Source of the DNA: a virus
Length of the DNA: 49,477 nt
Direction: 5' to 3' (one strand)
Virus record (IMG/VR): IMGVR_UViG_3300013947_000375
Location: 1-49,477 of that record
The translations under genes were made by a program, and so were the position numbers. This document shows positions 6,601 through 45,708 of this stretch, one piece after another; positions within the stretch are counted from its first letter, which is position 1; each line of letters begins with the position of its first letter. The notes under the pieces are model-generated. The model was not told the DNA's origin and ran no database searches. It saw nothing but the letters and a program-made list of their open reading frames with translations.

Positions 6601-8130
6601 ATGGTCGATATTGAAAGAGTGGATGTGGTGGCTTCTGGCCTTCGCATTCCCTATAGCCTTATCTCTGGGGAGCTAGAAGGTCTGTATGGATCCCGAGTTC
6701 TGGCTGAGATGGCTGAGATCATCGGATATTACGATGTATATGAACGGGGGGCTCAGTTCAAGTCCGAGGGATCCAGAAGTGACTATGTTCCTTCGAACCT
6801 AAGATTTAAACAGGCCTCTTCCCTTATCAATAAAGAGGCTCGTTTTCTCTTTTCCCATTCTCCCGATTTGTGGGTAGAGATTCCACACGATGAGAAAGAC
6901 CATGAGCAGGCTATGGTTCAGGGCTCTATTCTCCAAACTCTGGTGGATAACGTTCTTTCCCAGAATCATTTCCGCTCAAAATTGCTAAAGGCAGCTAAAG
7001 ACTGCTTCATCGGCAAGCGTGTGGCCTACTTTGTTAACTTCGATGAAGAGAAGCAGACCATTAAGGTTAATTTCATTCCTTCTTTGGAGTTCGTATACGA
7101 GACTGATGAAGATGATAGTGACCTTATCACCAAGATTGTGGCCTTTTATACTGTCATTGATTCCAAGACCAAGGCAGATCAAAGAATCTACAAGAAGAAG
7201 TACTGGATGAATAGTGGTTACTGCTGGATCAATGAGGCCATTTATGATGGTCTGGGAACTCTCATCGATGAGATTACCCCTGATAGACCTACTAAGTTTA
7301 ACTATATTCCCGCTGGGGTCATAGTGAATGATGGTCTAACCGGGGATATGCTTGGTGAGTCGGAGATCTCTAACCTAGAAGAGTTTGAGAGCTGGTTTTC
7401 TCGACTGTCCAATGCTGATATGGATGCTGAGAGACAGGGAATGAACCCTGTACGATGGGCTAGGGATATGAATCCTGAATCCACTAAAAACCTATCTATC
7501 GCAGCTGGTGCCTTTTGGGATCTTTCCACAGACCAGAACTCTGCTGAGGGGGTAACTGGTGAAGTTGGTGTTCTGGAAACCTCTATGAACTATACCAATG
7601 CCATTAGTTCCACTCTATCTCGAATCAAGTCCAGTATGTACGACACTGTGGATATGCCTGATGTGTCTCCTGAGGCCTTGAAGGGTGTAGTCTCCAGTGG
7701 CAAGACCCTAAAGGCTATTTACTGGGGCCTCATCGTTCGCTGTGATGAAAAGATGTTGGCCTGGAGACCCGCCCTAGAAAATATCGTAAAGATCATCATC
7801 GATGGGGCTAGGCTTTATCCTAATTCGGCTAAACCTTTTATTGAAGAGCCCATCCCCAATGTCCTCTTTGAGGTTAGGGTCGATAATCAGTACCCCCTGC
7901 CTGAGGATGAAGTGGAGGAGAAGCAAATTGACCTGGCTGAGGTTCAGGCTCAAACTATGTCCAAGAAGGCCTATATGAGAAAGTGGCGTAACCTCACTGA
8001 TGAGGAAGCGGATATGGAAATCAAACAGATTGCCCTGGAGAGACAAATTCTGGAGGATTCCTTTATGGGAATGGACTCTACTAACTCTATGGAGAATGAT
8101 GCTGAGGCTGAGGAGGTAATCAATGAATAA
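6601..8130 (+). CDS. portal protein (SPP1 gp6-like)
   Basis: size (509 aa), position after the terminase, acidic C-terminus, strong SD. Confidence 0.8.
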   Translation: MVDIERVDVVASGLRIPYSLISGELEGLYGSRVLAEMAEIIGYYDVYERGAQFKSEGSRSDYVPSNLRFKQASSLINKEARFLFSHSPDLWVEIPHDEKDHEQAMVQGSILQTLVDNVLSQNHFRSKLLKAAKDCFIGKRVAYFVNFDEEKQTIKVNFIPSLEFVYETDEDDSDLITKIVAFYTVIDSKTKADQRIYKKKYWMNSGYCWINEAIYDGLGTLIDEITPDRPTKFNYIPAGVIVNDGLTGDMLGESEISNLEEFESWFSRLSNADMDAERQGMNPVRWARDMNPESTKNLSIAAGAFWDLSTDQNSAEGVTGEVGVLETSMNYTNAISSTLSRIKSSMYDTVDMPDVSPEALKGVVSSGKTLKAIYWGLIVRCDEKMLAWRPALENIVKIIIDGARLYPNSAKPFIEEPIPNVLFEVRVDNQYPLPEDEVEEKQIDLAEVQAQTMSKKAYMRKWRNLTDEEADMEIKQIALERQILEDSFMGMDSTNSMENDAEAEEVINE

Positions 8131-8737
8131 GATCATTGTTCAGAAAGATCAAGCTCGGTTATATGGTCGACCTTACCCCATTCCCCAGGGTCAGTCTCAG
8201 TTCAGTGAGATTGAGTTCTCCTTTTCCGAAGAGTGGGCCAACCTGCGAAAGATTGCTCAGTTTGAGCAGAAGAGCGGCACATATAATGTCGATGTCTCCG
8301 ACAATAAGTGCTTCTGCCCGTCTGAGCTGGTCAAAGGCTGGGTAAATATTCGGGTCAAGGGTTATCCTGAAGACACGACCTCCCCCGTTATCGCTACAGC
8401 GAATGAAATCATCCTCCCCGTTTCTGTGGGCTTTAAGTCCGGTGGAACTCCCCCGGTTCCCCCTACTCCTGATTTGTATCAGAAGCTTGTTGAGGAGTTT
8501 TCTGATAAAGTCCAGTCAGACTGGAATCAGAATAACCCTAATGCAAAGGATTATATCAAGAACCGTACACATTGGGAGGATTCTGATGGGGGTGTTCATA
8601 CACTGGACGAAAAGTATTTAAGCCTTGTAGACGGGTATCAAGCCATTAAAGATCTTTCAGAGTTTGGTATAGTAACCCCTGCATATCAAGATGAGGTTAT
8701 GTATATCTCTCTAGAACGAGAAATTTACATCTTATAA
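8123..8737 (+). CDS. hypothetical virion-associated, fibre-like protein
   Basis: ORF with GAGGAGG SD; SDWNQNNPNAKDYIKNRTHWE motif of the kind seen in phage fibre proteins (recognition from memory only). Confidence 0.6.
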   Translation: MNKIIVQKDQARLYGRPYPIPQGQSQFSEIEFSFSEEWANLRKIAQFEQKSGTYNVDVSDNKCFCPSELVKGWVNIRVKGYPEDTTSPVIATANEIILPVSVGFKSGGTPPVPPTPDLYQKLVEEFSDKVQSDWNQNNPNAKDYIKNRTHWEDSDGGVHTLDEKYLSLVDGYQAIKDLSEFGIVTPAYQDEVMYISLEREIYIL

Positions 8738-8749
8738 AGGAGTGATATT

Positions 8750-9193
8750 ATGGCGGAATTTAAGTTCAAGAACCTCAATCAAATTGATACAGTAGAGAAT
8801 CCTGCTGAAGGTACAACCATAATGGGGTTTGAAAATGGTAACCCTATTCAAATGCCTATGAGTGCTGTAAGGGGTTCCGGTGGAGTATTTGTCATTAATC
8901 CCCAAGATGATGAGTTTAGTACCACCGATACTTCCTATGGTGATAAGGTTTTGGCTGCTTTACAAAGTGGTAAAACTGTATACTACTACTTTGACGAATA
9001 CAGTGGGGTTTATTCCCAAATTAGGGGGTTTTGGCTTCAGAACAATAGTGGGGATTGGAGTGTAGGGGTAATTCCTGAATTCCAACAATATCAGTCTTCA
9101 GGGGTTGATGAGGTAAGATATAATGGCGTAGGGAATACATGGATTGCGAATGGTGACTATACCTCCTTTGCAATTACCCCTTTGGTGACTTGA
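8750..9193 (+). CDS. hypothetical protein (147 aa)
   Basis: ORF with AAGGAG SD. Confidence 0.65.
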   Translation: MAEFKFKNLNQIDTVENPAEGTTIMGFENGNPIQMPMSAVRGSGGVFVINPQDDEFSTTDTSYGDKVLAALQSGKTVYYYFDEYSGVYSQIRGFWLQNNSGDWSVGVIPEFQQYQSSGVDEVRYNGVGNTWIANGDYTSFAITPLVT

Positions 9194-9892
9194 ATGTCAA
9201 TTGATATTCAAATCTATGGGGTACATGATAGGGATTTTATGATTTACCCTCTCAGAGAAAAGCTGAACTTAGATGAATCTTGTGTTCACTATGATGATAG
9301 ACCTAATGGGGGGATAACCCTATACACCGCTAAAAAAGCATGGCTGGCTCCCATTCCTAATGGCGTAACTCATAGAGTTGCTTTAGCTGATGATATTGAA
9401 GTGTGCAATAACTTCGGGGAAATCGTAACACAAATGACAGTTACACACCCACTGGACATAATCTCCCTTTTTCCTTATGAGTTTATGAAGAAAAACCCAG
9501 AGGTTGAAAATGTAGATACCCCATATTTTAAAGCCCATTCCCTTTTTGGTGCTGCCATTGTGATGCCTGTGGTATACATTGAACCTTGCTTTAGATATAT
9601 TAAAGAAAAGTTTAATGACAACATACCCGATGATGATGGCATTTTGGATTGGGCTTTAAGGAATCAGGTAAGAGTACTTACAACCATTCCCGCAACGGTA
9701 CAGCACATTGGGGATGAGAGTGTTTTGTGTCCCGGACGATCCATCAGACGAACTGAGTATTTTACCCCAGCTCCTGAAGCTAACTGGGGTAATAAAAAAG
9801 TTATGTCTTATTCTCGACAAGAGTGGTTTTTTTCTAACAAGGGTAGACCAAGAAAAAATAAGGGGGTGCTCAAAGTTGCTTTTGAACCTTGA
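9194..9892 (+). CDS. hypothetical protein (232 aa)
   Basis: ORF, ATG immediately after the upstream stop (translational coupling). Confidence 0.6.
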   Translation: MSIDIQIYGVHDRDFMIYPLREKLNLDESCVHYDDRPNGGITLYTAKKAWLAPIPNGVTHRVALADDIEVCNNFGEIVTQMTVTHPLDIISLFPYEFMKKNPEVENVDTPYFKAHSLFGAAIVMPVVYIEPCFRYIKEKFNDNIPDDDGILDWALRNQVRVLTTIPATVQHIGDESVLCPGRSIRRTEYFTPAPEANWGNKKVMSYSRQEWFFSNKGRPRKNKGVLKVAFEP

Positions 9893-10940
9893 GTATGCTA
9901 AAACTCTACTCAGTGGTTTATTCACTAAGCTTAGAGCTGTACAGAATCAAATAATCATAACCACAACAAGTCTTCAGAAATCTATAGACCAGAATAAAAA
10001 AGAGATTGACAAAGATTTGGTTGCTTTGGAGTCAAACCTGAGAAAACGAATCACTACAACAGCGGATTCAACTGCTGAAAATTATGGGATCCCCCTTTTA
10101 AAAGCAACTTGGATACAACGGGAAGGTACATCATACCCCCATATATACCCCTCGTTTGGTTTAGTGGAGGGAAGCACTTTTAGGGTGTTATTTTCTTCAA
10201 CTGGTCAGGCAGATCATTTTGCCAGGTATATCTATATAGGTAACACCCGAATTCCCCTGTATATAGAACCCCCTGTTGGGGAGAACTTAAATTATAATAA
10301 CATATTTATGACTCAGCAGGAAGCTGGGGTATGCTACCTTATAGTGTATAGAACAGGCGCTTGCTATATTCAGGGGGTACAATATGTGTATACAGACCTA
10401 TTAAGAACTGGCGCCCCCCAAATCAATAAGTACCTGAAGGGGGGGGGATATTGGAAAAACCCCGTAGTGGCAAAAACCCCTTCTGAGGTTTTTGCTGATA
10501 TTATGCCTTCAGTTACCGTTGCTGATAATGCTAAGCTCCTTGGGGTTTTAGCAGGAAAGTGGTCTGTAGTGGATCCCCCTACTTCTTTTGTGGTTGTTAT
10601 TACACCGAATGATTCTGGTGTGCTCTCAGCTGACAAAACCCTTACAGATACGTTGGCGGCTTGTAAGGCTGGTAAGGTAGTGAAGGCCAAGTTTGATACA
10701 GTTTCATTGGAACTTCCCTTAGCTGATTACAATGACTCCCAGATCGTATTCCGGGCACCCCAGTTTTCGGGTAATAGGCTCACTCAGTGGGCTCAGGTTA
10801 CAATGACTGCATCTGAAATTACAACCACGGCAATCCCCAACGATGTAGTAATTGCATCTTCCACGACTGGGTCTACTAAGCTGTTTAAGCTTACGGTTGA
10901 TGACTCTGGAACCATTTCGGCTACAGAAGTTACTTCCTAA
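9876..10940 (+). CDS. hypothetical structural protein with N-terminal coiled coil
   Basis: the frame is open from 9708, but TTG at 9876 follows AAGGGGG (9860-9866) and avoids a 185-nt overlap with the upstream gene. Confidence 0.55.
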   Translation: MLLNLEYAKTLLSGLFTKLRAVQNQIIITTTSLQKSIDQNKKEIDKDLVALESNLRKRITTTADSTAENYGIPLLKATWIQREGTSYPHIYPSFGLVEGSTFRVLFSSTGQADHFARYIYIGNTRIPLYIEPPVGENLNYNNIFMTQQEAGVCYLIVYRTGACYIQGVQYVYTDLLRTGAPQINKYLKGGGYWKNPVVAKTPSEVFADIMPSVTVADNAKLLGVLAGKWSVVDPPTSFVVVITPNDSGVLSADKTLTDTLAACKAGKVVKAKFDTVSLELPLADYNDSQIVFRAPQFSGNRLTQWAQVTMTASEITTTAIPNDVVIASSTTGSTKLFKLTVDDSGTISATEVTS

Positions 10941-10954
10941 GTAGGTGAGTTACA

Positions 10955-12607
10955 GTGCCAAAAATCAATCTTCAGGATGGTGAGCAGGCTAGACTATCCA
11001 TTACTAAAGAACAAGAAGTAGAGATCTCTAAACTGTATCACGAGGTCTATCTAAAGCTAAAGAAGCAGATGGATGCTCTCCCTTTACAGGGGGAGGGTAC
11101 AGCTTCCCAGTCCCTCCGAAAGACCTATCTCAATAAGCTTATCAAACAATTGAAGGCTGAATATAAGTCTTTAGGGGAAGGACTGGAGAAGCAGATCAAG
11201 AAGGGAATGAAAGATACCTCCTCATCTGTGGTTCAAGCTAACGATGACTGGCTTCAAAAAGTTGGTATCAGTATAAAGGGGGCTTACAGTTTTGTTCCCG
11301 GTGACATAGTGTCTCTGGTCTCCATGGGAAAGCTTTATGGTGAAGGATGGACCCTAAGTAAGGCTATCTGGGGGGAGTCTCAAAAACATGCTCATGACAT
11401 AGATAAGATTGTGGCTTCAGGTATAGCGGCCAATAAATCTGCTTATGATATAGCCAAAGACCTAGAGAAGTATGTTAATCCCTCTGCGAAGAAAGAGTGG
11501 GATTGGTCCAAAGTATATCCTGGAACTTCTAAGAAGATTGACTATAATGCTCAACGTCTGGCTAGAACCATGGTCTCTCATGCATATCAGCAAAGTCTAC
11601 TGGCCTCTACTAAGTATAATCCCTTTGTAAAAGGGTATAGGTGGAGATCAGCTCACTCTACTCGTACCTGTGAGCTCTGTAATAGTAGGGATGGCCAAAT
11701 CTATTCAGCAAACAATCTCCCTTTGGATCACCCCAATGGAATGTGTACCTTCATTGTGGAACTCACAGGGGACATGAACTCTATAGCTGAGAGGCTAGGT
11801 GACTGGGCCAATGGAAAAAAGGATCCAGACTTGGATAAGTGGGCTAAGAGTATGTTTTCCCATGGGGGGTTCAAATCCCCTAAGAAAGTAAAGGATTCTA
11901 TTTTAAAATCCCCTAAGGCTACTAAGGCTAAGAGACCTAAAAGGTCTTCTACTCCTAATATTAAAGAATGGATAGCTGGAGTAAAAAAGAATACCCAAAA
12001 GGGAATGCTGGATTGGGAGAATAAGGAGCTAATGAATCTTCCCCAAGAACAGCTAGATGCCCTAAGACTATATACAGGTAGTAGCTTCGAGGAGATGAAT
12101 GGGTATCTAAGACTTTTAGGAAGGGGCCTAAGCAAAGAACAGGCCATAGCTGACTCGGGAATTAGACCTAATCAGCTAGAGGCCATTGAAAAGGCCAAAA
12201 AGGGACTAAGCTCTATAAAGACCACAGAGTCTCTATACCTACGAAGGGGAACTAATCTTGGAGACCTGGCTGGCTTTATGCCTGGGGACTTTGATGATAA
12301 TGTGGACAAATTATCTCGACTTTCTGTGGAGGAGCTAAATAAAAAGTTCTCTGGTACGGTTGGTCTTTACAGTGGTTTTACTAGTACTTCCAGTCTTTGG
12401 GATAGGGGCTTTAGTAACCCGGTAGAGATAATCTTTCATGCCCCTCCAGGTACTTCAGCTTCATCCATTATGAACATATCCCACTATGGAACCAATGAGG
12501 GAGAAACCCTATTAAATGCTGGAACTATGGTTAGAATACTTTCTGTGGAAGAGTCTGATGGGCATATGTACTCCAGGATCAGAATCTTTATGGAGATAAT
12601 TCCCTAA
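10955..12607 (+). CDS. minor head (morphogenesis) protein, SPP1 gp7 / Mu F-like, fused to a C-terminal ADP-ribosyltransferase domain
   Basis: gp7-like NAQRLARTMVSHAYQQ and RTCELCNSRDGQIY; ART R-S-E triad LYLRRG, GFTSTSS, NEGETLL; GTG start after AGGTGAG. Confidence 0.8.
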   Translation: MPKINLQDGEQARLSITKEQEVEISKLYHEVYLKLKKQMDALPLQGEGTASQSLRKTYLNKLIKQLKAEYKSLGEGLEKQIKKGMKDTSSSVVQANDDWLQKVGISIKGAYSFVPGDIVSLVSMGKLYGEGWTLSKAIWGESQKHAHDIDKIVASGIAANKSAYDIAKDLEKYVNPSAKKEWDWSKVYPGTSKKIDYNAQRLARTMVSHAYQQSLLASTKYNPFVKGYRWRSAHSTRTCELCNSRDGQIYSANNLPLDHPNGMCTFIVELTGDMNSIAERLGDWANGKKDPDLDKWAKSMFSHGGFKSPKKVKDSILKSPKATKAKRPKRSSTPNIKEWIAGVKKNTQKGMLDWENKELMNLPQEQLDALRLYTGSSFEEMNGYLRLLGRGLSKEQAIADSGIRPNQLEAIEKAKKGLSSIKTTESLYLRRGTNLGDLAGFMPGDFDDNVDKLSRLSVEELNKKFSGTVGLYSGFTSTSSLWDRGFSNPVEIIFHAPPGTSASSIMNISHYGTNEGETLLNAGTMVRILSVEESDGHMYSRIRIFMEIIP

Positions 12608-12614
12608 GTCCTCA

Positions 12615-12643
12615 TTTACAATTCTCTCCTGTTGTGGTATAAT
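12615..12643 (+). promoter_or_regulatory. sigma-A-type promoter inside the head module
   Basis: TTTACA (12615-12620), 17-nt spacer, TATAAT (12638-12643). Confidence 0.6.
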
Positions 12644-12665
12644 ATCAGCGAAGGAGGAATAGCTT

Positions 12666-12869
12666 ATGAAAGACCTCAAAGCTCGAATTGAAAGTGAAGC
12701 TCGATCCATCACTAGAATCACCAACTCAATGCTACAGTGTAAAGATTGTAAGTTTCGGTTTGATGATTCTGAAGTATTTGGGAATACTTCTCAATGCGAA
12801 GAATACCCCCTAAAACCCAGTCGGGTTTTTAAAGGGGAAGACTGTCCTAAATATCAGAAGGGGAACTAA
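12666..12869 (+). CDS. small Cys-containing protein (67 aa)
   Basis: ORF with GAAGGAGG SD; CKDC...C...C pattern. Confidence 0.6.
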   Translation: MKDLKARIESEARSITRITNSMLQCKDCKFRFDDSEVFGNTSQCEEYPLKPSRVFKGEDCPKYQKGN

Positions 12870-12976
12870 CTGAAGAGTTATTTCTTCTTTTGTATGCCTT
12901 TTCACCAATTGCAGGCGTAAAAGAACAGTTAGGGTATCACAGACCAGAGCTGTCTCTCTGGGGAAAGGAGCTCAAT

Positions 12977-13630
12977 ATGGGCAATTACAATGAAAACACT
13001 CTCAGAAACATTGGACTTCAGTTTTTTGCTGAAGGTGGGGAAGATCCTGAAAACCAGGACAACCACAATGGGGATGAGGGTACTGGTAGTCAGTCCAGGA
13101 AAACCTTTACTCAGGAGTACGTAAATGCCCTCCTGAAGAAGGAGAAAGAGTCTGCCAAAAAGGCCCTCCTAAAGGAGCTTGGGGTTGAGGATGCCAAGTC
13201 TGCTAAAGATGGCCTAGCCAAGTACAAAGAGACCCTAGAGAAAGACAAAACCGACATTCAGAAGGCCCAGGACACTGTGGCTGCTGAGACTAAGGCCAAG
13301 CAGGAGGCTGAGAAGAGAGCCCTTCTAGCTGAAGCCAAGGTAGAGGTTCTGTCTGCTGGCTGTAAGCCTGAATACCTTGATGATGTCATTACCCTGGCCA
13401 TGGCCAAAGTGTCTGAGGATAAAGACCTAGCCACTGTGGTTAAGGAGATGAAGGAGGGTACTAAGTACTCGGCTTTTTTCGGAGACTTCGATTCTGGTTC
13501 TGGTGACAAGGGTACCGGAGGGGGGTCTGGGTTTAAGAGAAAGGAAGGCTCGGAGAAAAAGGGTGGTCTAGGTTCTCGTCTGGGGGCTCAGGCTATCCAC
13601 AATGCTAAAAATCCCTATTTTAACAATTAA
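12977..13630 (+). CDS. scaffolding protein
   Basis: ATG at 12977 after AAAGGAG; K/E/A-rich coiled-coil composition; position upstream of the capsid genes. Confidence 0.55.
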   Translation: MGNYNENTLRNIGLQFFAEGGEDPENQDNHNGDEGTGSQSRKTFTQEYVNALLKKEKESAKKALLKELGVEDAKSAKDGLAKYKETLEKDKTDIQKAQDTVAAETKAKQEAEKRALLAEAKVEVLSAGCKPEYLDDVITLAMAKVSEDKDLATVVKEMKEGTKYSAFFGDFDSGSGDKGTGGGSGFKRKEGSEKKGGLGSRLGAQAIHNAKNPYFNN

Positions 13631-13644
13631 AGGAGGAAGAAACA

Positions 13645-14049
13645 ATGCTCAATCAAACTGGAATCAAAAAGACTACCTATGGTAGCCCGGTTCAGATTCT
13701 GTTCAATGTTCAGAATCAGGTGTCTGTGGGAGTTCGGGTGGATGATGCTTACTCCATTACTCGTGATGGTCGTAAGATCGTTCCCGCGGGCACTCCGCTG
13801 AGCGGCGATCTAACCGCCCGTAATACGGCCTTCGTTAAGGCTGTGGATGAAAGTGCAGCCAGTAAGGGAGATGGTAAGGCCGCTACCGGCATCCTTCTCC
13901 ACGATGTGGATGTTACCGATGGAGATGCCAATGGTACCCTGCTCATCTGGGGTTTTGTTGATCTGACCAAGATCGATACTACCACTGCTACCCTTATCAC
14001 TGCCACTCGGATGACTGAGCTGGCCGGTAAGGTCACTTTCCTAAAGTAA
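13645..14049 (+). CDS. putative head decoration protein
   Basis: small protein immediately upstream of a lambda-E-like capsid gene (the lambda D-E order); strong SD. Confidence 0.4.
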   Translation: MLNQTGIKKTTYGSPVQILFNVQNQVSVGVRVDDAYSITRDGRKIVPAGTPLSGDLTARNTAFVKAVDESAASKGDGKAATGILLHDVDVTDGDANGTLLIWGFVDLTKIDTTTATLITATRMTELAGKVTFLK

Positions 14050-14083
14050 TTTCCCTAATAATTTATAAAGGAGGAAAATCTAA

Positions 14084-15124
14084 ATGCCCACTATTTTTGA
14101 CTTTGTCAATGCCAATGAGATGGTCTCCTATTGGGAGACTCTTACCAAAGATCGTCCGCCTTACCTGGGTGAGACCCTGTTTCCGGCCCAGAAGAAGCTG
14201 GGCCTCGACCTAAAGTGGATCAAGGGTTCTGCCGGTCTACCGGTGGTTCTGAAGCCCTCTGCCTTCGATGTGGGAGCGGTTCCCCGTCCGCGTATCGGCT
14301 TTGATCGTCTGACTGCGGAGATGCCCTTCTTCAAGGAGTCTCTGTATATCGATGAGGAGCTGCGCCAGCAGCTAAATATGGTCCTGGAGACTGGCAACCA
14401 GGCCTATATCGATGCGGTGCTGAATCGCATTTTCAATGATAACACGGTTCTGCTGGAGGGTGCTGCCGCTCGTCGTGAGCAGATGCGTATGATGGCCCTA
14501 ACTACGGGAGCTATCTCCATCACTGCCAACGGTCAGAACTACAGCTATGACTATGGCATTCCTTCGTCCCACAAGGTCACTGTGACTACCTCCTGGAGCA
14601 GTACCTCCGCTGACATTGGAGCCGACATTGTGGCTGGTCAGGACCTGATCGAGGATGATACGGGTGTTCGTCCTACTCGAGCGGTTTGCTCTCGTAAGAC
14701 CTGGGGCTATATGCTCAAGAATGAGATCTTTAAGAAGTCCATCTATGTTCTGTCCCAGGGCCAGGCTACCCTGACCGACTCTGTCCTGAAGCAGTATCTA
14801 CAGGACACTTATGGCCTGGAGGTTGTGGTCTATTCTAAGCGTTACAACAACGACTCTAAGTCGGCTACCAAGTATGTTCCCGATGACACCTTCGTTATGT
14901 TCCCTTCGGGTGCTCTGGGTACTACCTGGTTTGGCACTACCCCGGAGGAGTCTGATCTAATGGGCAAGGCTGTGGCCAATGTTTCCATTACCGATGTCGG
15001 TGTGGCGGTCACTTCCATCAACAAGGCTGATCCAGTGAATGTTGAAACCAAGGTGACCATGATCTCCCTGCCCTCTTTTGAGGCTGCTGATCAGGTCTAT
15101 ATTCTGGACGTTATTCACTCCTAA
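14084..15124 (+). CDS. major capsid protein (lambda gpE-like family)
   Basis: 346 aa; position; N-terminal pattern IFDFVNANEMVSYWETL...PPYLGETLFP typical of Phage_cap_E; elevated GC and biased codons. Confidence 0.75.
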   Translation: MPTIFDFVNANEMVSYWETLTKDRPPYLGETLFPAQKKLGLDLKWIKGSAGLPVVLKPSAFDVGAVPRPRIGFDRLTAEMPFFKESLYIDEELRQQLNMVLETGNQAYIDAVLNRIFNDNTVLLEGAAARREQMRMMALTTGAISITANGQNYSYDYGIPSSHKVTVTTSWSSTSADIGADIVAGQDLIEDDTGVRPTRAVCSRKTWGYMLKNEIFKKSIYVLSQGQATLTDSVLKQYLQDTYGLEVVVYSKRYNNDSKSATKYVPDDTFVMFPSGALGTTWFGTTPEESDLMGKAVANVSITDVGVAVTSINKADPVNVETKVTMISLPSFEAADQVYILDVIHS

Positions 15125-15141
15125 CCTAAGGGGGTAATACT

Positions 15142-15465
15142 ATGCTCAAAATTACCAATGGGGAACAGACTTTGATAGTCACTAAGGGGGCCTTCAAGGA
15201 GATGTACTCCCCCGCCGGCTGGGTTGTAGTGAATACTGCCCCCACTATGCCCCTTCAGGAGCTCGCTAAGGCCCTGGAAGAGGGTGGGGGCAGTAATCCC
15301 CCCTCTGACCAGGAGGACTCCCCTGAAGACCTCAGTGAGGAGGATACGCTTAAGAATATGTCCGAAGTGGAGCTTAAGCAGTATGCTTCCCTTTTAGGGA
15401 TTAAGACCAAGTCTCTTAAAACTCGGGAGGAGCTCATGGAGGCTATTAAAGCCCATAAAGAATAA
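15142..15465 (+). CDS. hypothetical protein with C-terminal HeH/Rho-N-like motif
   Basis: ELKQYASLLGIKTKSLKTREELMEAI helix-extended-helix pattern after an acidic linker. Confidence 0.6.
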   Translation: MLKITNGEQTLIVTKGAFKEMYSPAGWVVVNTAPTMPLQELAKALEEGGGSNPPSDQEDSPEDLSEEDTLKNMSEVELKQYASLLGIKTKSLKTREELMEAIKAHKE

Positions 15466-15479
15466 GGGGGTATACTCCC

Positions 15480-15731
15480 ATGTCTGATCTAGATAACCTA
15501 AAGCTCATTCTTAGAGAAGGGGAGATCCCCTTCTTTACTGATGAGCAGCTCAATTTTTATCTCGACCAAAATGGTGGAGATGTAAGAGCTTCGGCCTATC
15601 AATGTTTACTGGTTAAGGCTGAGGACACCACTCTTTCCGTAAGTGGCCTTTCCACAGCTGATACCAGTAAATACTTTAGGAGACTAGCTTCTCAGTATCG
15701 CCCCTTTAATTCCGGAATCCTTAAGGGGTGA
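15480..15731 (+). CDS. putative head-tail connector protein
   Basis: size and position after the capsid gene. Confidence 0.4.
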   Translation: MSDLDNLKLILREGEIPFFTDEQLNFYLDQNGGDVRASAYQCLLVKAEDTTLSVSGLSTADTSKYFRRLASQYRPFNSGILKG

Positions 15732-15736
15732 TATTG

Positions 15737-16096
15737 ATGAATATTAGTTTCGAAAGGTATAAGCTCATCCGGTTTATCCAGTCCCAGGGAAAAACCTATA
15801 CCTTTGTAGCCTATGGAAAAAACCAATTTGGAGAACCTGATGAAGTAGAGTATTCTGTGGACATTCCTGGGGTATATCACGAAACTCAGGGATATGTTAC
15901 TGGCTCTGCTTCTGATGGATCCAATGTTAAAACTAAGCCCGACTCCCTAATCATGTGTCTTTCCGAAGACTCTATGGAGCTTAGTGAAGGTATGGTAGTA
16001 ACCATAGAGGGTAAAGACTATAAGGTAATAGATCTACGAGATATAAACAACCTGGGCGTAGCCTGTGACATTTCCTTGGAGGTGGTCCTTAAATGA
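15737..16096 (+). CDS. putative head closure / head-tail adaptor protein
   Basis: position; ATG 15737 lies 8 nt after TAAGGGG (the track start at 15728 is a GTG inside the SD). Confidence 0.35.
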   Translation: MNISFERYKLIRFIQSQGKTYTFVAYGKNQFGEPDEVEYSVDIPGVYHETQGYVTGSASDGSNVKTKPDSLIMCLSEDSMELSEGMVVTIEGKDYKVIDLRDINNLGVACDISLEVVLK

Positions 16097-18055: not shown

Positions 18056-20659
18056 TTGATAAACATGGGAAGTGCAGTTGGTTATCTTCTCCTTGATACC
18101 ACTGGATTTAAGGATGGTCTCAAAGGAGCTATAAACCAACTGAAAGTTTTCAGTAATGAGCAGGCTTCCATCTCTGACAAGCTAACAGGGCTTGGAAGTG
18201 CCTTTACTGGAGCGGGAAAAACCCTCACCAAAAACCTTACTACCCCCCTTGTGGGTCTCGGTACTGTAGCTGTGAATACCACAGCCACTTTTGACTCTTC
18301 CATGTCAAAGGTTCAGGCAATCTCTGGAGCCGTAGGAGATGATTTTGATCGTCTTCGTGAAAAGGCCAAGGAGATGGGGGCCAAAACAAAGTTCAGTGCT
18401 TCTGAGGCTGCTGATGCCTTTACTTATATGGCAATGGCTGGTTGGAAAACCGAAGACATGTTGGATGGTATTGAAGGCATCATGAGCCTTGCAGCTGCCT
18501 CTGGTGAGGATCTAGCTGCAACTTCTGATATTGTCACGGATGCTCTAACAGCTTTTGGACTTACGGCTAAAGACTCGGCTCATTTTGCTGATGTATTAGC
18601 TGCTGCTTCCAATAGTGCGAATACCAATGTTAGCATGTTGGGTGAGTCCTTCAAGTATGTAGCCCCCGTAGCTGGTGCTCTGGGCTATACTGCCGAAGAT
18701 ACCTCTATAGCTCTAGGCCTAATGGCCAATAGTGGTATTAAAGCTAGTCAGGCTGGTACAGCCCTAAGAACCATACTGACCAACATGGCTGATCCCACAG
18801 ATACTGTGGCTTCTGCTATGGAGATCCTGAATGTGTCTCTCACTGATTCTGAAGGAAACATGAAGTCTCTGCGAGAGATTATGGAGGATCTCAAGGTAGG
18901 ATTTGGTAATCTAAGTGAAGCTGAGTCCGCTCAGGTGGCATCAATGCTGGCCGGTAAAGAGGGTATGTCTGGACTATTAGCTATAGTCAATTCCAGTGAG
19001 ACTGACTTTAATAAGCTGGCCGAGGCTATTGACAATGCCGATGGTACAGCGGAAAATATGGCCAACACCATGCTCGATAACCTTAATGGACAGCTAACCA
19101 TCCTTAAGTCTGCTCTAGAGGGGGCTGCAATAGCTTTCGGGGATCTACTCATGCCCCTGATTAGGGACCTGGTGAGTCTTCTTCAAGGGGCTGTGGACTG
19201 GGTAAATAACCTTACTGAGGCTCAGAAGGAAACCATAGTTAGAATAGCCGAAGTAGCTGCTGTGGTAGGGCCGGTCCTTCTGATTTTGGGAAAGGTAGTA
19301 AAGTCTATCACCTCTATCATATCCATAGTTAATAAAGCCAAGACCGTTATTTTGGCCATAAAGCCCGTTATAACAGCCCTGATGGCTACCCTAAAGGCTA
19401 ATCCCATTGGGCTGGTTATTACGGCTATAGCGGCCCTGGTAGCGGCCTTCACTTACCTGTGGAACAACTGCGAGTCCTTCCGACAATTTTGGATTAATCT
19501 CTGGGAAGGGATTAAGAGTACCTTTAGTTCAGTAGTTGAATGGTTCAATACCACTATAGCCAGTATCTCGGCCTGGTTTGAATCTATTCCAGAACGTATT
19601 CAAGCGGTATTCCAGAGCATTGGAGACTGGTTCAGTGGAATATGGACTTCCATTACCACTTGGTTTACAGAACTCCCTGGAAAGGTCTGGAATTGGCTTA
19701 CAAACACAGCTCAATCAATTATTGATTGGCTCACCTCTCTGCCGGAAACTGTGGCCTACTGGCTAGGGTATCTCGCGGGAAGTGTTGTTCAATGGGGAAT
19801 AGACCTTTATGATTCTATCACCCAATGGAGTACAGAAACCTATGAGAATATCTCAAATTGGGTTACAACCACTATTCAGAATATTGTCACTTGGGTCTCT
19901 GAACTTCCTGGTAGAATTTGGAACTGGCTTGTGGAAACTTATAATCAGATCAAGCAATGGGGTATCGACACTTATACCTCCATTAAAAATTGGATGGTCA
20001 ATACTCTCAATAGTGTAAGTACCTGGTTGTCTGAACTTCCTGGAAGGGTCTGGAACTGGCTCCTTAATACCCTAGGAAGGATTAAACAGTGGGGTTCTGA
20101 TACCTATAGTTCGGCTAAACAAATTATTTCCGACTTTATCAATAGAATCTCCACAGGGCTTTCTGAACTTCCTGGGAAATTCCGAGAGTGGTTTAATCAG
20201 GCCATATCCTATTTGTCTACCCTCCCCAGCCGAATGTGGCAAATTGGAAGAGACATCTTCAATGGACTCTGGGATGGACTTAAGTCCATTTGGTCGAACA
20301 TTAAAAGCTGGATAGAAGGAGTTAAGGAGAAAATTGCTAGTATCTTTAGTTCTGCTAAACAGGGTTATAAAGATGCTACTGCAGCAGCTTCTTCTACTAG
20401 ATCCAGTCGTTCAGAGGGATCCTATGCCTCTGGTTTGGATTATGTCCCCAGAGATATGTATGTTAAGGTTCATGAGGGTGAGCGTATCCTAACGAAACAG
20501 GAGTCTAAGAATCAAATCACCAATCAACCTCAACAACAAACAGTGAAACAACCTGTAAACATTGTTATGCAAGTTGATGGTAGAGAGCTCGGCTATGTGG
20601 CAATTGATAATATCAATACTATTACCGAGACAGATGGAACCGTTAAACTCAAGGTCTAA
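18056..20659 (+). CDS. tape measure protein
   Basis: 867 aa; TMP-like N-terminal region; central hydrophobic segments; W-rich 44-aa repeats; TTG 18056 or ATG 18065. Confidence 0.85.
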   Translation: MINMGSAVGYLLLDTTGFKDGLKGAINQLKVFSNEQASISDKLTGLGSAFTGAGKTLTKNLTTPLVGLGTVAVNTTATFDSSMSKVQAISGAVGDDFDRLREKAKEMGAKTKFSASEAADAFTYMAMAGWKTEDMLDGIEGIMSLAAASGEDLAATSDIVTDALTAFGLTAKDSAHFADVLAAASNSANTNVSMLGESFKYVAPVAGALGYTAEDTSIALGLMANSGIKASQAGTALRTILTNMADPTDTVASAMEILNVSLTDSEGNMKSLREIMEDLKVGFGNLSEAESAQVASMLAGKEGMSGLLAIVNSSETDFNKLAEAIDNADGTAENMANTMLDNLNGQLTILKSALEGAAIAFGDLLMPLIRDLVSLLQGAVDWVNNLTEAQKETIVRIAEVAAVVGPVLLILGKVVKSITSIISIVNKAKTVILAIKPVITALMATLKANPIGLVITAIAALVAAFTYLWNNCESFRQFWINLWEGIKSTFSSVVEWFNTTIASISAWFESIPERIQAVFQSIGDWFSGIWTSITTWFTELPGKVWNWLTNTAQSIIDWLTSLPETVAYWLGYLAGSVVQWGIDLYDSITQWSTETYENISNWVTTTIQNIVTWVSELPGRIWNWLVETYNQIKQWGIDTYTSIKNWMVNTLNSVSTWLSELPGRVWNWLLNTLGRIKQWGSDTYSSAKQIISDFINRISTGLSELPGKFREWFNQAISYLSTLPSRMWQIGRDIFNGLWDGLKSIWSNIKSWIEGVKEKIASIFSSAKQGYKDATAAASSTRSSRSEGSYASGLDYVPRDMYVKVHEGERILTKQESKNQITNQPQQQTVKQPVNIVMQVDGRELGYVAIDNINTITETDGTVKLKV
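19670..20300 (+). repeat. in-frame 132-bp (44-aa) degenerate repeats within the tape measure gene
   Basis: GAACTYCCTGG (ELPG) at 19670, 19901, 20033, 20165; the last three are exactly 132 nt apart. Confidence 0.8.
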
Positions 20660-30901: not shown

Positions 30902-31469
30902 CCTCAGTTTCCTCCTCAGGAACCTCAGCAACAGAGGACTTCAGGGAAGTAATGGCCACAGCTACCTTAGCCTTGGGGAAACTATTGATAGTGGAGATTA
31001 GCTTCTCCCGGTTGGACTTGGGGTGGGCAGTTCCCCCCAGCTCAGAAATGATCTTAATAAGCTGTTTCTTGGTTAGATCATCCAGAGGGCCTTTCTCCTG
31101 GGCCTCAGCTTTTTCGACAGCAGCAGTAGCTTTGTCCTTATCCTTAGACTTCTTCCGCTTCTTCTTAGGCTTCTCCTCAAGAGAAGTAGAGGTAGCTCCC
31201 AGTTCGATGAGGAACATGTTGGAGTAGTTTGCCAGATCGGTTAGAGTGTCCACCAGAGACTCCCCATTGGAATCATCCAGACCAGCTCGAACCAGGGCCT
31301 TTACTCGGTTGAGCTTATCCTCCAGTCGAATAATTGCCACTGTGGGACCATACTCCGAAAAGGTCTTACCGAAGGCATCATCATATTTTTCATTCTTTTC
31401 CGAGTACAGAGCTTCCTGCTGAGAATGCAGAGTCTTTAGAATTTGGAGCTTTTCCTTGGTGCTAGCCAT
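30885..31469 (-). CDS. DUF1599-like (nucleotide-modification-associated helical domain) protein with K-rich linker and HeH-like C-terminus
   Basis: EKNEKYDDAFGKTF...IRLEDKLNRVKAL...ESLVDTLTDLANYSNMFLIEL fits the DUF1599 KN.DYG / DK..R / DL.NY pattern (from memory). Confidence 0.45.
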   Translation of the reverse strand: MASTKEKLQILKTLHSQQEALYSEKNEKYDDAFGKTFSEYGPTVAIIRLEDKLNRVKALVRAGLDDSNGESLVDTLTDLANYSNMFLIELGATSTSLEEKPKKKRKKSKDKDKATAAVEKAEAQEKGPLDDLTKKQLIKIISELGGTAHPKSNREKLISTINSFPKAKVAVAITSLKSSVAEVPEEETEDGEEE

Positions 31470-37081: not shown

Positions 37082-37809
37082 TAGAATACTCCCTCCACGT
37101 CCTTATTGTATACATGCAGGGAGAAGATAGTGTGGGTAAAACTCCCCACAGGGTAGCCGGTTTTCTCAGCCACCCACTCCAGAAATCGAATGGCCAGGTA
37201 GACATCATTTCGAAAATGGGTAGCGAAGTCACAGGATCTCATTACATAGTGCAGATTGAGCTTCCCATCACGAACCTGAAGGCCATACCCCAGGGAACAG
37301 GGAACTCGAGAAATACCCCCCAAGAAGTTAGGATCTCTGGTGGGACTCCAAAGACTAATCCACAGTTGGCGAGAGTCAGGATCTTCCTTTAGACGATTGA
37401 TGATCTTAGTTACCTGGTCATTATTCCAGATGAGCTCGTTGTAGGTATAGGCCATTTTACCTTCGTGTAGATATTCGGTCCATACCTCTTTGCGTAGCTC
37501 CCAGGCCTTTCCAGGATTAAGAAAATGGGGGGAAAGGTAGTTAGCCTGACCATCAGAAGTACGGTTCCAAGGGTCAGTTACCCTCTCCTTGAACTCAGCA
37601 TCGGCCCAAGGCTGAGTAACCCCAGGAATGTCCTGGCTCTTGGCGTCGAGCAGACAGTAAGAATAATTCTGGAGCTCCCTAGTCTCGTAGTCAGGATTTC
37701 CTTTGACATACTTGTCCTGCATAGTGGCAGGTCTTACCACAATGCCCATCTCAGCAAGGTCCCGTTTGGTCTCCTCGATCATTTCCTCAGCATTAATGTA
37801 GATTCTCAT
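37081..37809 (-). CDS. thymidylate synthase (ThyA)-fold pyrimidine C5 transferase; candidate dCMP/dUMP hydroxymethylase or methylase
   Basis: RVPCSLGYGLQVRDGKLNLHYVMRSCDFATHFRNDVYL...SLHVY parallels the ThyA PCH...QRSCD...PFN...DxHxY core. Confidence 0.7.
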   Translation of the reverse strand: MRIYINAEEMIEETKRDLAEMGIVVRPATMQDKYVKGNPDYETRELQNYSYCLLDAKSQDIPGVTQPWADAEFKERVTDPWNRTSDGQANYLSPHFLNPGKAWELRKEVWTEYLHEGKMAYTYNELIWNNDQVTKIINRLKEDPDSRQLWISLWSPTRDPNFLGGISRVPCSLGYGLQVRDGKLNLHYVMRSCDFATHFRNDVYLAIRFLEWVAEKTGYPVGSFTHTIFSLHVYNKDVEGVF

Positions 37810-45169: not shown

Positions 45170-45708
45170 TTAGTTTTTCATGAGCCAGTCAGCCATAACA
45201 TTTAGATCCATAACTACCTTAGGATCCAAAGTGTAGATCCACTTCTTGGGGATCAAGTCAGCCCCAAAGCGAGCTCCTGCAATTCCTCCAGCCAGAGCGG
45301 CTATAGTATCTGCATCCCCCCCATGATTTACAGGTCCCAGAATAGCCCCACTGAAACTCCGGGTATGATGAGCCCAGTAGATAGCATTATTCACAGAATT
45401 TCTTACATGGCCCGTAGGGTCCTTAGGACCACCCTTAAGCCACTCCACAAACCCGGTACAGCAATTGGAGAGAAAATTCTCTTTGCCCTTCATACGGGCT
45501 TTGGCCACAATGGTCATCATCTGGGTATCATCAGTTACTTCTCCCGGATTCAGGAAAAGCCACCCACCCCCAGAATATCAGTAACTTCTCCATATCGGGA
45601 CTGAATTTGGTCCTGGGTCATGAATTCTGTGGTTGCCCCCATGGCATCCCCAATAGCGAAGCCCAATAGGGAACCAAGGATACGATTGCGATTCTTAGTA
45701 TTTGTCAT
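45170..45708 (-). pseudogene. compact ADP-ribosylglycohydrolase (DraG/ARH family) interrupted by a frameshift at a G5 run
   Basis: frame A (45708-45550): MTNTKNRNRILGSLLGFAIGDAMGATTEF...; frame B (open from 45577): GGGWLFLNPGEVTDDTQMM...GGDADTIAALAGGIAGARFG; the frames overlap at 45550-45577 around the C5/G5 run 45567-45571. Confidence 0.75.

What the first reader, a model, noticed from the sequence alone, without database searches (positions are those of the whole stretch)
11972..12607. ADP-ribosyltransferase toxin domain fused to the gp7-like internal head protein
The C-terminal ~210 aa carry a complete R-S-E ART triad in the correct order and spacing (LYLRRG, GFTSTSS, NEGETLL), as in C3/VIP2-type exoenzymes. 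The domain is attached to an SPP1 gp7 / Mu F-like minor head protein. gp7-type proteins are packaged in the capsid, so the ART is likely delivered with the DNA and would act immediately on host targets, analogous in logic to T4 Alt.
Basis: partly seen in the sequence, partly recalled or inferred. Interest (0 to 1): 0.75.

Follow-up and report, generated by a model that had tools for sequence, protein, structure and literature searches.

The report
Phage head protein carrying ADP-ribosyltransferase toxin
A phage minor head protein (MuF/SPP1 gp7 type) really does carry an intact C3/VIP2-like ADP-ribosyltransferase at its C-terminus, but this fusion belongs to the already described "MuF polymorphic toxin" family, so it is a well-formed new member and not a new kind of system.

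Summary
Gene 10955-12607 (+, 550 aa) has an N-terminal MuF/gp7-type domain and a C-terminal ADP-ribosyltransferase (ART) domain. The ART matches PF03496 at E=1.6e-17, is modelled at pLDDT >90, and hits C3, VIP2, Certhrax, CDTa and Listeria Lmo0066 in Foldseek at about 1e-11. R431, S477-T-S and E515-x-E517 are invariant in 44 homologues.

The fusion is not new. MuF-toxin fusions, including ARTs, are described (Jamet 2017; Iyer 2022), and two MuF-ARTs, EFV and Bxa, have been tested experimentally.

What I add:
- The linker, ART and a downstream 67-aa four-cysteine ORF (12666-12869) form one swappable cassette (11815-12883). Close relatives carry another ART, a metallopeptidase or nothing in that place.
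- The small ORF follows 24 of 26 ART-bearing MuF genes and none of about 43 ART-less ones. A conserved sigma-70-like promoter precedes it. It is a candidate inhibitor or immunity protein.
- A sister clade adds an ADP-ribosylhydrolase directly downstream, as in Bxa/Bsi/BAH. This window holds only a broken remnant of that hydrolase (45170-45708, minus strand).
- The phage looks virulent: no integrase was found, and it has its own replication and nucleotide-metabolism genes.

Packaging into the virion and injection remain inferred.

The parts
10955..12607 (+). MuF-ART gene (550 aa, GTG start, stop included)
   Evidence: ORF list. SD AGGTGA upstream. Identical or near-identical 550-aa proteins occur on other contigs.
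10955..11857 (+). N-terminal MuF / SPP1 gp7-type minor head domain (aa 1-301)
   Evidence: PF04233 aa 149-260 at E=7e-7. PHROG 1657 aa 11-298 at E=2e-64. TIGR01641 at 38.5 bits. Nucleotides 10964-11814 form a conserved DNA block shared with relatives.
11858..11947 (+). Disordered, Lys/Arg-rich linker (aa 302-331)
   Evidence: AlphaFold pLDDT <50 for aa 302-331. 11 K/R in the 35 residues aa 301-335.
11954..12604 (+). C3/VIP2-type ADP-ribosyltransferase domain (aa 334-550)
   Evidence: PF03496 at E=1.6e-17. pLDDT >90. Foldseek against PDB: 8za7_B, Certhrax, Plx2A, C3bot, C3stau, CDTa, Ia, VIP2 and C2-I at E 1e-11 to 1e-9, TM on target up to 0.83.
12245..12247 (+). Codon of catalytic Arg R431 (LYLRRG)
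   Evidence: Invariant in 44 sequences. Aligns with the catalytic Arg of solved ARTs. Codon checked.
12383..12391 (+). Codons of the S477-T478-S479 (STS) motif
   Evidence: S477 is invariant; T478 and S479 are at least 90% conserved. Aligns with the STS/STT motifs of C3larvin, Lmo0066 and Plx2A.
12497..12505 (+). Codons of E515-G-E517 (ExE, ARTT loop)
   Evidence: Both Glu are invariant. They align with the E-x-E of Lmo0066 and the Q-x-E of the C3-likes.
11815..12883 (+). Swappable cassette: linker + ART + promoter + small ORF
   Evidence: blastn against 8 relatives: similarity stops at 11814-11866 and resumes at 12834-12895. Between these points relatives carry nothing, an HExxH domain or a different ART.
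12615..12643 (+). Sigma-70-like promoter (TTTACA-17-TGgTATAAT, 11/12 plus extended -10) between the ART stop and the small ORF
   Evidence: Consensus scan. TATAAT is invariant, the -35 is largely conserved and the spacer varies in 9 relatives. It is a consensus match only; function was not tested.
12666..12869 (+). 67-aa ORF with four invariant Cys (C25, C28, C44, C60); candidate ART inhibitor or immunity protein
   Evidence: AAGGAGG SD. Four Cys invariant in 14 divergent homologues. Found downstream of 24 of 26 ART-bearing MuF genes and 0 of about 43 ART-less ones. Searching from the small ORF gives 15 of 15 loci with an ART directly upstream. No Pfam, PHROG or NCBIfam match.
45170..45708 (-). 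Decayed ADP-ribosylglycohydrolase (ARH) gene: two ORF fragments (45550-45708 and 45170-45520)
   Evidence: PF03747 profile positions 1-35 (E=3e-9) and 228-286 (E=9e-15) hit two different ORFs in different frames. Relatives have an intact 274-285 aa ARH. The DNA alignment shows a 1-nt deletion plus a 288-nt deletion that removes the LGNGxxMR and QGRLTHNN motifs.
6601..8130 (+). Portal protein (context; presumed docking partner of the MuF domain)
   Evidence: PHROG 64 portal at E=2e-33. Relatives carry PF05133 SPP1_portal at the same position.
12890..15124 (+). Scaffold (12890-13630), decoration-like (13645-14049) and major capsid (14084-15124) genes (context: SPP1-like head module)
   Evidence: PHROG 2303 scaffold, PHROG 29 major head protein. 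Weak HDPD hit.

Best explanation
The gene encodes a MuF polymorphic toxin or effector.

- Shown: the N-terminal MuF/gp7-type domain is the conserved part, and the gene lies in the head-gene cluster.
- Inferred from SPP1 gp7: this domain docks on the portal during procapsid assembly, so a few copies end up inside the head.
- Shown by prediction and conservation: a disordered Lys-rich linker tethers a catalytically intact C3/VIP2-type ADP-ribosyltransferase with an ExE ARTT motif.
- Inferred: the enzyme is arginine-specific.
- Inferred: the protein leaves the capsid with the DNA at infection and uses host NAD+ to mono-ADP-ribosylate host proteins at once. In this apparently virulent phage the purpose would be takeover or counter-defence. 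The target is unknown.
- Inferred from strict co-occurrence: in the producing cell the enzyme is held in check by the 67-aa four-Cys protein encoded just downstream, which has its own conserved promoter-like element.
- Shown: relatives also carry an ADP-ribosylhydrolase that could erase stray modification. In this genome that gene is decayed.
For: Domain identities. ART fold and catalytic residues. Head-module context (terS, terL, portal, MuF-ART, scaffold, decoration, MCP, with no prohead protease found in it). Polymorphic C-terminus on an N-terminus that is about 80% identical (this ART, another ART, an HExxH peptidase, or none). Cassette boundaries at DNA level. Small ORF linked to the ART (24/26 against 0/~43, and 15/15 from the reverse direction). 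Conserved promoter-like element. ARH directly downstream of the small ORF in 11 sister-clade loci. ARH found on 13 of 16 ART-positive and 0 of 18 ART-negative near-complete contigs (Fisher p=6e-7, not corrected for relatedness). Literature: MuF toxin family, with 14% of 191 being ARTs and EFV having tested ART activity (PMC5576092); Alt/VIP2 ARTs often fused to MuF (PMC9503650); Bxa is a MuF-ART that modifies arginines and is neutralised by the binder Bsi and the hydrolase BAH (PMC11699363); SPP1 gp7 is a low-copy portal-bound capsid protein (summarised in PMC10083569).
Against: No data show packaging or ejection for this or any other MuF toxin. The cited papers state that the role is unknown. 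Pairwise and profile comparisons with SPP1 gp7 are not significant, and the MuF half is modelled poorly (pLDDT 30-80). The portal gene is not adjacent: 2.8 kb with four unrelated ORFs lie between it and the MuF gene. If copy number is as low as for gp7, the dose per infection would be tiny. A folded 24-kDa domain would have to unfold to pass through the tail channel. The small ORF could not be modelled (pLDDT 41), so no structural support for binding exists. The promoter could equally serve the downstream scaffold and capsid genes. Arg specificity is inferred from the ExE motif only.
Confidence: 0.6

Rival explanations
1. Lysis-released toxin or fitness factor. The ART is made late and acts outside the infected cell after lysis, on neighbouring bacteria or on animal host cells, as reported for Bxa acting on epithelial cells. 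The MuF part would be irrelevant to delivery.
For: Bxa, a MuF-ART, ADP-ribosylates non-muscle myosin II in epithelial cells and aids gut colonisation (summarised in PMC10083569 and PMC11699363). Relatives of this window come from gut and faecal metagenomes and MAGs. The closest solved folds are exotoxins that act on eukaryotic targets (C3, CDTa, Ia, VIP2).
Against: No signal peptide or cell-entry (B) component is evident near the gene. An intracellular inhibitor and hydrolase partnership points to a target inside bacteria. A virulent phage gains nothing obvious from helping a host it has just killed.
Confidence: 0.15
2. Producer-cell enzyme. The ART works late in the infected cell on host or phage proteins, for example to shut down host functions during assembly. 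The fusion to MuF would only provide co-expression or localisation at the procapsid, and the enzyme is not injected.
For: It lies in the late head operon. The ARH of the window's clade sits in the opposite-strand replication module, which suggests temporal control of ADP-ribosylation within a single infection.
Against: A dedicated inhibitor with its own promoter directly downstream suggests activity in the producer cell is suppressed and not used. The conserved fusion to a capsid-internal protein across thousands of homologues would then be unexplained.
Confidence: 0.12
3. The domain is not a protein ART in practice. It could be a NAD+ glycohydrolase, could modify nucleic acid or a small molecule, or could be an inactive relic on its way to loss, as the ARH already is.
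For: The accompanying ARH is already a pseudogene. Close relatives have lost the domain altogether (P0098, 307 aa). Target class cannot be read from sequence.
Against: R431, S477, E515 and E517 are invariant, and the NAD-site residues N382 (invariant), Y373 and R386 (at least 90%) are also conserved, in 44 homologues that are 50-94% identical to the window protein. The fold is predicted with pLDDT >90. The nearest families are protein ARTs.
Confidence: 0.08

Closest known systems
MuF polymorphic toxins (Jamet et al. 2017, PMC5576092), including the ART member EFV of an Enterococcus faecalis V583 prophage
   Same: N-terminal MuF domain. Encoded in the head/packaging module. Variable C-terminal toxin domain exchanged between close relatives. 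Small ORF directly downstream. Firmicute host range. ART is one of the recurrent toxin types.
   Different: That survey found toxin-bearing MuF only in temperate phages and prophages. No integrase was found here, and the genome has its own PolA, primase-helicase, nucleotide-metabolism genes, a sigma factor and tRNAs.
Bxa / Bsi / BAH of Bacteroides stercoris prophage (PMC11699363)
   Same: A MuF-fused ART together with a small non-enzymatic binder and an ADP-ribosylhydrolase. The sister clade of this window has exactly that gene order: MuF-ART, small ORF, ARH.
   Different: The host phylum differs. The small protein here is 67 aa with four Cys and no detectable family, whereas Bsi is longer (residues up to at least 92 are cited). 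In this window the ARH is remote, on the other strand, and broken. No sequence comparison with Bxa, Bsi or BAH was possible.
C3 / VIP2 / iota-type R-S-E exoenzymes and Listeria Lmo0066 (PDB 8za7, an ART-ARH effector-immunity pair)
   Same: Same fold (Foldseek E about 1e-11, TM up to 0.83). Same R, STS and (Q/E)xE motifs. PF03496 membership. ExE as in the arginine-specific VIP2/iota/C2-I group.
   Different: 16-25% sequence identity. No secretion signal or B component. Fused to a phage head protein.
T4 Alt (capsid-packaged, injected RNA polymerase ADP-ribosyltransferase)
   Same: The logic is the same: an R-S-E ART carried in the head and proposed to act on the host as soon as DNA enters. Distant fold similarity to T4-like ARTs (BFVD E=1e-6; PHROG 802 E=1.4e-4 over aa 310-393 only).
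   Different: From established knowledge, Alt is targeted by a capsid-targeting sequence and trimmed by the prohead protease. Here the carrier is a MuF domain, and no prohead protease gene was seen in the head module. The sequence is much closer to C3/VIP2 than to Alt.
SPP1 gp7 (minor head protein bound to the portal)
   Same: Same Pfam/TIGRFAM domain family, with an equal TIGR01641 score (38.5 against 37.8 bits). Same head-module layout (portal, gp7, scaffold, decoration, MCP).
   Different: gp7 has no toxin domain. Direct similarity is not significant. In SPP1 gene 7 overlaps the portal gene, whereas here four ORFs intervene.

Membership tests
MuF polymorphic toxin family | N-terminal MuF (PF04233 / TIGR01641) domain | tested here: met
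   PF04233 at 30.4 bits, just above the 29.6 cutoff. TIGR01641 at 38.5 bits, just below its 39.65 cutoff, but SPP1 gp7 itself scores 37.8. PHROG 1657 at E=2e-64.
MuF polymorphic toxin family | Gene lies in the head/packaging module | tested here: met
   Order is terS, terL, portal, four ORFs, MuF-ART, small ORF, scaffold, decoration-like, MCP.
MuF polymorphic toxin family | C-terminal toxin domain is variable between proteins that share the N-terminal domain | tested here: met
   Relatives about 80% identical over aa 1-300 end in this ART, a divergent ART, HExxH domains or nothing. DNA breakpoints at 11814/11866 and 12834-12895.
MuF polymorphic toxin family | Small ORF (candidate immunity gene) immediately downstream that co-varies with the toxin type | tested here: met
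   The 67-aa ORF is present with 24 of 26 ART types and absent from all ART-less relatives. An unrelated 48-54 aa ORF follows most HExxH types. Immunity function itself was not tested.
MuF polymorphic toxin family | Carried by a temperate phage or prophage (reported as a property of the family, not strictly defining) | tested here: not met
   No integrase or recombinase appeared in the Pfam/PHROG scans, which covered every ORF of at least 300 aa other than the probable tape-measure ORF 18056-20659, which was not scanned. Only a faint excisionase-family hit was seen (E=3e-4). Matches in bacterial genomes are short MAG contigs, not integrated prophages. Absence of lysogeny cannot be proven from sequence.
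C3/VIP2-type R-S-E ADP-ribosyltransferases (PF03496) | ART fold | tested here: met
   AlphaFold pLDDT >90 for aa 334-550. Foldseek probability 1.00 to more than 50 solved ARTs.
C3/VIP2-type R-S-E ADP-ribosyltransferases (PF03496) | Catalytic Arg, S-T-S and (Q/E)-x-E in order | tested here: met
   R431, S477-T-S and E515-x-E517 are invariant or nearly so and align with the motifs of solved enzymes.
C3/VIP2-type R-S-E ADP-ribosyltransferases (PF03496) | NAD+-dependent ADP-ribosylation of a protein target | not testable with these tools
   Needs biochemistry.
T4 Alt-like injected ARTs | Presence in the virion and ejection into the host | not testable with these tools
   Needs virion proteomics and infection assays.
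T4 Alt-like injected ARTs | Sequence membership in the Alt family | tested here: inconclusive
   PHROG 802 at E=1.4e-4 over aa 310-393 only. BFVD T4-like ART at E=1e-6, TM 0.42.
SPP1 gp7 | Direct homology to gp7 and portal binding | tested here: inconclusive
   BLASTP E=0.16 and hhalign E=0.14, although the alignment is collinear (134-279 against 135-281). Both proteins hit TIGR01641 equally. Portal binding is not testable here.
ART / ARH toxin-immunity pairs (Bxa-BAH, Lmo0066 pair) | Intact ADP-ribosylhydrolase partner | tested here: not met
   The window has only two fragments of PF03747, with a frameshift and a 288-nt deletion. Relatives have intact genes.

The most novel reading that the evidence does not exclude
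The 67-aa four-cysteine protein would be a previously undescribed family of non-enzymatic inhibitors dedicated to C3/VIP2-type phage ARTs, expressed from its own promoter. This apparently virulent, probably DNA-modifying Clostridia phage would then use a capsid-delivered MuF-ART as a host-takeover or anti-defence effector and not as an inter-bacterial toxin, having dispensed with the hydrolase arm of the ART / binder / ARH module.
Probability: 0.4. Interest if true: 0.5.

Novelty: new member of a known kind. Interest (0 to 1): 0.3.

Why it matters
MuF-fused toxins are widespread in phages, yet nobody has shown what they do during infection. The literature says so explicitly.

This locus is a clean natural experiment. 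The same head module occurs in close relatives with this ART, another ART, a peptidase or no cargo. There is a strictly co-inherited small partner protein and a hydrolase that is intact in some genomes and decayed in this one. That makes the packaged-effector hypothesis and the two-tier immunity model (binder plus eraser) testable in a Gram-positive, apparently lytic setting.

It does not change what is known about ARTs or MuF proteins.

Tried and rejected
- DNA megablast of the gene against 50,697 phage records found no match. tblastn found only the MuF half in Clostridium and Clostridioides phages at less than 40% identity.
- Direct homology to SPP1 gp7 by BLASTP and hhalign was not significant. 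I rely on family profiles instead.
- The structure of the 67-aa ORF came out at pLDDT 41 from a shallow alignment, so I did no fold search on it. The word-indexed protein search returned only 7 close homologues and no names. Pfam, PHROG and NCBIfam gave nothing.
- A profile scan using the ARH alignment with the window fragments included failed. I repeated it without them.
- A literature search for Lmo0066 found nothing.
- The genome-contig scan gave only four short MAG contigs. These give a host hint (Oscillospiraceae, Ruminococcus, Clostridiales) but no prophage context.
- I rejected the idea that the ART triad is a chance motif match, given the profile, fold and conservation evidence. I also rejected the idea that the fusion is an ORF-calling artefact, because it is a single frame with no internal stop and is conserved as one ORF in all but one of the related loci examined (L081 has it split).
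Full report
**1. Observation**

The window holds one uninterrupted ORF at 10955-12607 on the plus strand. It is 550 aa, starts with GTG and has an AGGTGA Shine-Dalgarno 7 nt upstream.

Pfam places ADPrib_exo_Tox (PF03496) on aa 361-538 at E=1.6e-17 (64 bits, cutoff 23.4). It places Phage_Mu_F (PF04233) on aa 149-260 at E=7e-7 (30.4 bits, cutoff 29.6). PHROGs puts aa 11-298 in 'head morphogenesis' family 1657 at E=2e-64.

- LYLRRG, with R431.
- GFTSTSS, with S477-T478-S479.
- NEGETLL, with E515-G-E517.

In sequence alignments to solved structures these motifs align with the catalytic Arg, the STS motif and the Q/E-x-E of C3larvin (4xsg), Listeria Lmo0066 (8za7) and Plx2A (5urp). In a 44-sequence alignment of homologues that are 50-94% identical to the window protein, N382, R431, S477, E515 and E517 are invariant within the ART half.

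**2. Structure**

I ran AlphaFold2 with that alignment. It gave three regions:
- A confident C-terminal domain, aa 334-550, with pLDDT 90-97.
- A disordered, Lys/Arg-rich linker, aa 302-331, with pLDDT below 50.
- A poorly resolved, mostly helical N-terminal half.

Foldseek against the PDB returned only ADP-ribosyltransferases at the top. These were 8za7_B (the ART of a Listeria ART-ARH effector-immunity pair; E=1.5e-11, TM on target 0.83), Certhrax, Plx2A, C3bot, C3stau, CDTa, iota Ia, VIP2 and C2-I.

Against predicted viral structures the best matches are other 'minor capsid protein' or 'MuF-like' ART fusions and phage VIP2-like proteins. T4-type RNA polymerase ARTs score much weaker, at 1e-6.

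The ExE form of the ARTT motif is, from established knowledge of the family, the arginine-specific form found in VIP2, iota and C2-I. C3 enzymes have QxE. That specificity is an inference here.

**3. Link to gp7**

SPP1 gene 7 (L070:3802-4725) shows no significant direct similarity to the window's N-terminal 300 aa. BLASTP gave E=0.16 and hhalign gave E=0.14, although the alignment is collinear.

The TIGR01641 'phageSPP1_gp7' model scores the window protein 38.5 bits and SPP1 gp7 itself 37.8 bits. So the window protein is as good a member of the domain family as the namesake.

The head module also has the SPP1 layout: terS 4291, terL 5075, portal 6601-8130, then MuF-ART, scaffold 12890, a decoration-like gene 13645 and the major capsid protein 14084. 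No prohead protease is visible in it.

**4. It is a known kind**

The protein search found 3,720 homologues, most of them pre-annotated with PF03496 plus PF04233. The literature describes the architecture:
- Jamet et al. 2017 defined 'MuF toxins'. They found that 14% of 191 are ARTs, noted the tested ART EFV of E. faecalis V583, and proposed co-injection with DNA by analogy with T4 (PMC5576092).
- Iyer et al. 2022 noted that many Alt/VIP2 ARTs are fused to MuF (PMC9503650).
- Alexei et al. 2024 showed that Bxa, a MuF-ART of a Bacteroides prophage, ADP-ribosylates arginines. It is neutralised by a small binder (Bsi) and by an ADP-ribosylhydrolase (BAH) (PMC11699363).

It is reasonable but not new, and it is still undemonstrated.

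**5. What else is there: a cassette**

Close relatives whose first 300 aa are about 80% identical to the window protein end differently:
- The same ART.
- A strongly divergent ART (P0062).
- HExxH metallopeptidase-like domains (P0063, P0067, P0095, P0111).
- Nothing at all (P0098, 307 aa).

blastn of window 6000-16000 against eight relatives shows three conserved blocks: 6000-8063 (terL and portal), 10964-11814 (MuF N-terminus) and 12884 onward (scaffold through capsid).

Two variable blocks separate them. One, 8064-10963, holds four ORFs. The other, 11815-12883, contains exactly the linker, the ART and a 67-aa ORF at 12666-12869.

**6. The small ORF**

It has a strong SD (AAGGAGG) and four Cys (C25, C28, C44, C60). 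These are invariant in 14 homologues that are 30-66% identical to the window protein.

Across 69 related loci plus the window, a homologue lies just downstream of 24 of 26 ART-bearing MuF genes. The two exceptions are L015 and L021; L021 is a locus cut short and has only a weak ART match. None of about 43 ART-less MuF genes has it. The association holds for the divergent ART type as well.

Searching the viral collection from the small ORF's side gave 15 loci. All have an ART directly upstream, and in one of them (L081) the ART is a separate ORF.

A near-consensus sigma-70-type promoter lies in the 58-nt gap between the ART stop and the small ORF. It reads TTTACA-17-TGgTATAAT, an 11/12 match, at 12615-12643. 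In nine relatives the TATAAT is invariant and the -35 is mostly kept, while the spacer drifts.

This fits a cognate inhibitor or immunity protein with its own expression. The promoter could also simply serve the downstream scaffold and capsid genes. The protein matches no Pfam, PHROG or NCBIfam family, and its AlphaFold model was unusable (pLDDT 41).

**7. The hydrolase arm**

A PHROG hit led me to two adjacent minus-strand ORF fragments. One is 45550-45708 (52 aa) and the other is 45170-45520 (116 aa). They match the first 35 and the last 59 positions of Pfam ADP_ribosyl_GH (PF03747), at E=3e-9 and 9e-15.

Relatives carry intact genes of 274-285 aa. Protein and DNA alignments show two lesions in the window copy:
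- A 1-nt deletion that shifts the frame near the GGGWL motif.
- A 288-nt deletion that removes the conserved LGNGxxMR and QGRLTHNN segments.

So the window copy is a pseudogene. The single-base change alone could be an assembly error, but the deletion could not.

In a sister clade (L024, L026, L028, L029, L036-L038, L040, L045, L075, L081) an intact ARH lies immediately after the small ORF. The order there is MuF-ART, small ORF, ARH, which is the same logic as Bxa/Bsi/BAH.

Among near-complete contigs of at least 40 kb with a related MuF gene, ARH was detected on 13 of 16 ART-positive contigs and on 0 of 18 ART-negative ones. Fisher's exact test gives p=6e-7, but the counts are raw and not corrected for relatedness. 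ARH detection also depended on two exact peptide patterns.

**8. Phage context**

The first 60 nt of the contig recur at 49411, and a 35-bp tandem unit sits at both ends. This suggests a complete circularly assembled genome.

The genome encodes:
- A PolA fused to a UDG-superfamily domain, a primase-helicase, an SNF2 helicase, a PD-(D/E)XK nuclease, AAA_24 and DUF669.
- ThyA-like and ThyX-like proteins, dUTPase_2, a dTMP-kinase-like protein, dCMP deaminase, DUF1599 and an HD protein.
- A sigma factor, a Spo0A C-terminal-domain protein, a SpoIIID-like protein and four tRNAs.

No integrase turned up among the ORFs of at least 300 aa that I scanned, which is all of them except the probable tape-measure ORF 18056-20659, nor among the many smaller ORFs I scanned. 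It therefore looks virulent. That departs from the survey's finding that toxin-bearing MuF occurs only in temperate phages. MuF-ART fusions in lytic actinophages are, however, already annotated.

Bacterial-genome matches are short MAG contigs from Oscillospiraceae, Ruminococcus, Clostridiales and Ca. Fimenecus. The host is probably a gut Clostridia member.

**9. Mechanism**

Shown by computation:
- The domain identities.
- The intact and conserved catalytic set.
- The disordered tether.
- The cassette structure.
- The co-inheritance with the Cys4 ORF and, in relatives, with an ARH.
- The decay of the ARH in this window.

Inferred:
- Portal docking and encapsidation through the MuF domain.
- Exit with the DNA.
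- Arg-directed mono-ADP-ribosylation of host proteins early in infection.
- Inhibition by the small protein in the producer cell.

I put about 0.6 on this overall model and about 0.85 on the narrower claim that the domain is an active ART.

The rivals are:
- A lysis-released toxin acting outside the cell, as Bxa does on epithelial cells (0.15).
- A late-acting enzyme in the producer cell that is not injected (0.12).
- A NADase, a non-protein ART or a decaying relic (0.08).

**10. Verdict**

Novelty is low: this is a new member of the MuF polymorphic toxin family.

The modest added value is in three things. The cassette is precisely delimited. The Cys4 partner with its own promoter is uncharacterised. 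The ART, binder and ARH module is seen in different states of completeness across one phage lineage.

Interest is 0.3.

Noticed in passing
window 2902-3483 (+), 44130-44354 (-), 823-1371 (+): The phage encodes a stand-alone Spo0A C-terminal (DNA-binding) domain protein (PF08769 E=3e-36; TIGR02875 positions 143-258 only, so no receiver domain). It also encodes a SpoIIID-like protein (PF12116 E=5e-6) and a sigma-70-family factor. This looks like a set of sporulation-regulator mimics in a Clostridia phage.
   Followed up: partly
window 1617-2147, 9194-9892, 30885-31469, 34634-37081, 37081-37809, 38570-39699, 42465-43681: There is a dense nucleotide-metabolism or modification set: dCMP deaminase, ThyA-like, ThyX-like, dUTPase_2, dTMP-kinase-like, DUF1599 ('nucleotide modification associated'), an HD protein, a PolA fused to a UDG-superfamily domain, and a glucosyltransferase-like ORF (phrog_854). 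This suggests non-canonical or modified DNA.
   Followed up: no
window 1-77 and 49401-49477: A 35-bp unit, GGTGAGGAGTTAGTCTAAACCTCACTAATATAATA, is tandemly repeated 2.2 times at both contig ends, and the first 60 nt recur at 49411. The contig is probably a complete genome closed on a repeat, or one with terminal redundancy. The unit itself contains an inverted repeat (GGTGAGG...CCTCAC).
   Followed up: partly
window 8064-10963 (+): A second variable block lies between the portal and the MuF gene. It holds four ORFs (204 aa, 147 aa, 232 aa glucosyltransferase-like, and about 340 aa unknown). Relatives carry quite different genes there (a phage-fibre-repeat protein, an LRR_5 protein, or just one 67-72 aa ORF), whereas in SPP1 gene 7 overlaps the portal gene.
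   Followed up: partly
L081:1216-3406: In one relative the MuF part (503 aa) and the ART (232 aa) are separate, overlapping ORFs in different frames. This could be a genuine split, a programmed frameshift or a sequencing error.
   Followed up: no
P0010, P0022 and P0062 (relatives), between the MuF and toxin domains: Longer relatives (612-625 aa) carry an extra conserved segment of about 65 aa (…QKKWL..GFSP..LP..F.EW…HPYQELNKWY…) between the MuF domain and two different ART types. It may be a pre-toxin adaptor module. It is absent from the window protein.
   Followed up: no
window 3615-4021 (+): A cluster of four tRNA genes (Met-CAT, Gly-TCC, Gln-TTG, Leu-TAG) lies just upstream of the terminase genes.
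   Followed up: no
L038, L040, L045 (about 6670-6970): In three sister-clade loci an additional 80-95 aa ORF is inserted between the MuF-ART gene and the Cys4 ORF. It may be a second small partner or orphan immunity gene.
   Followed up: no
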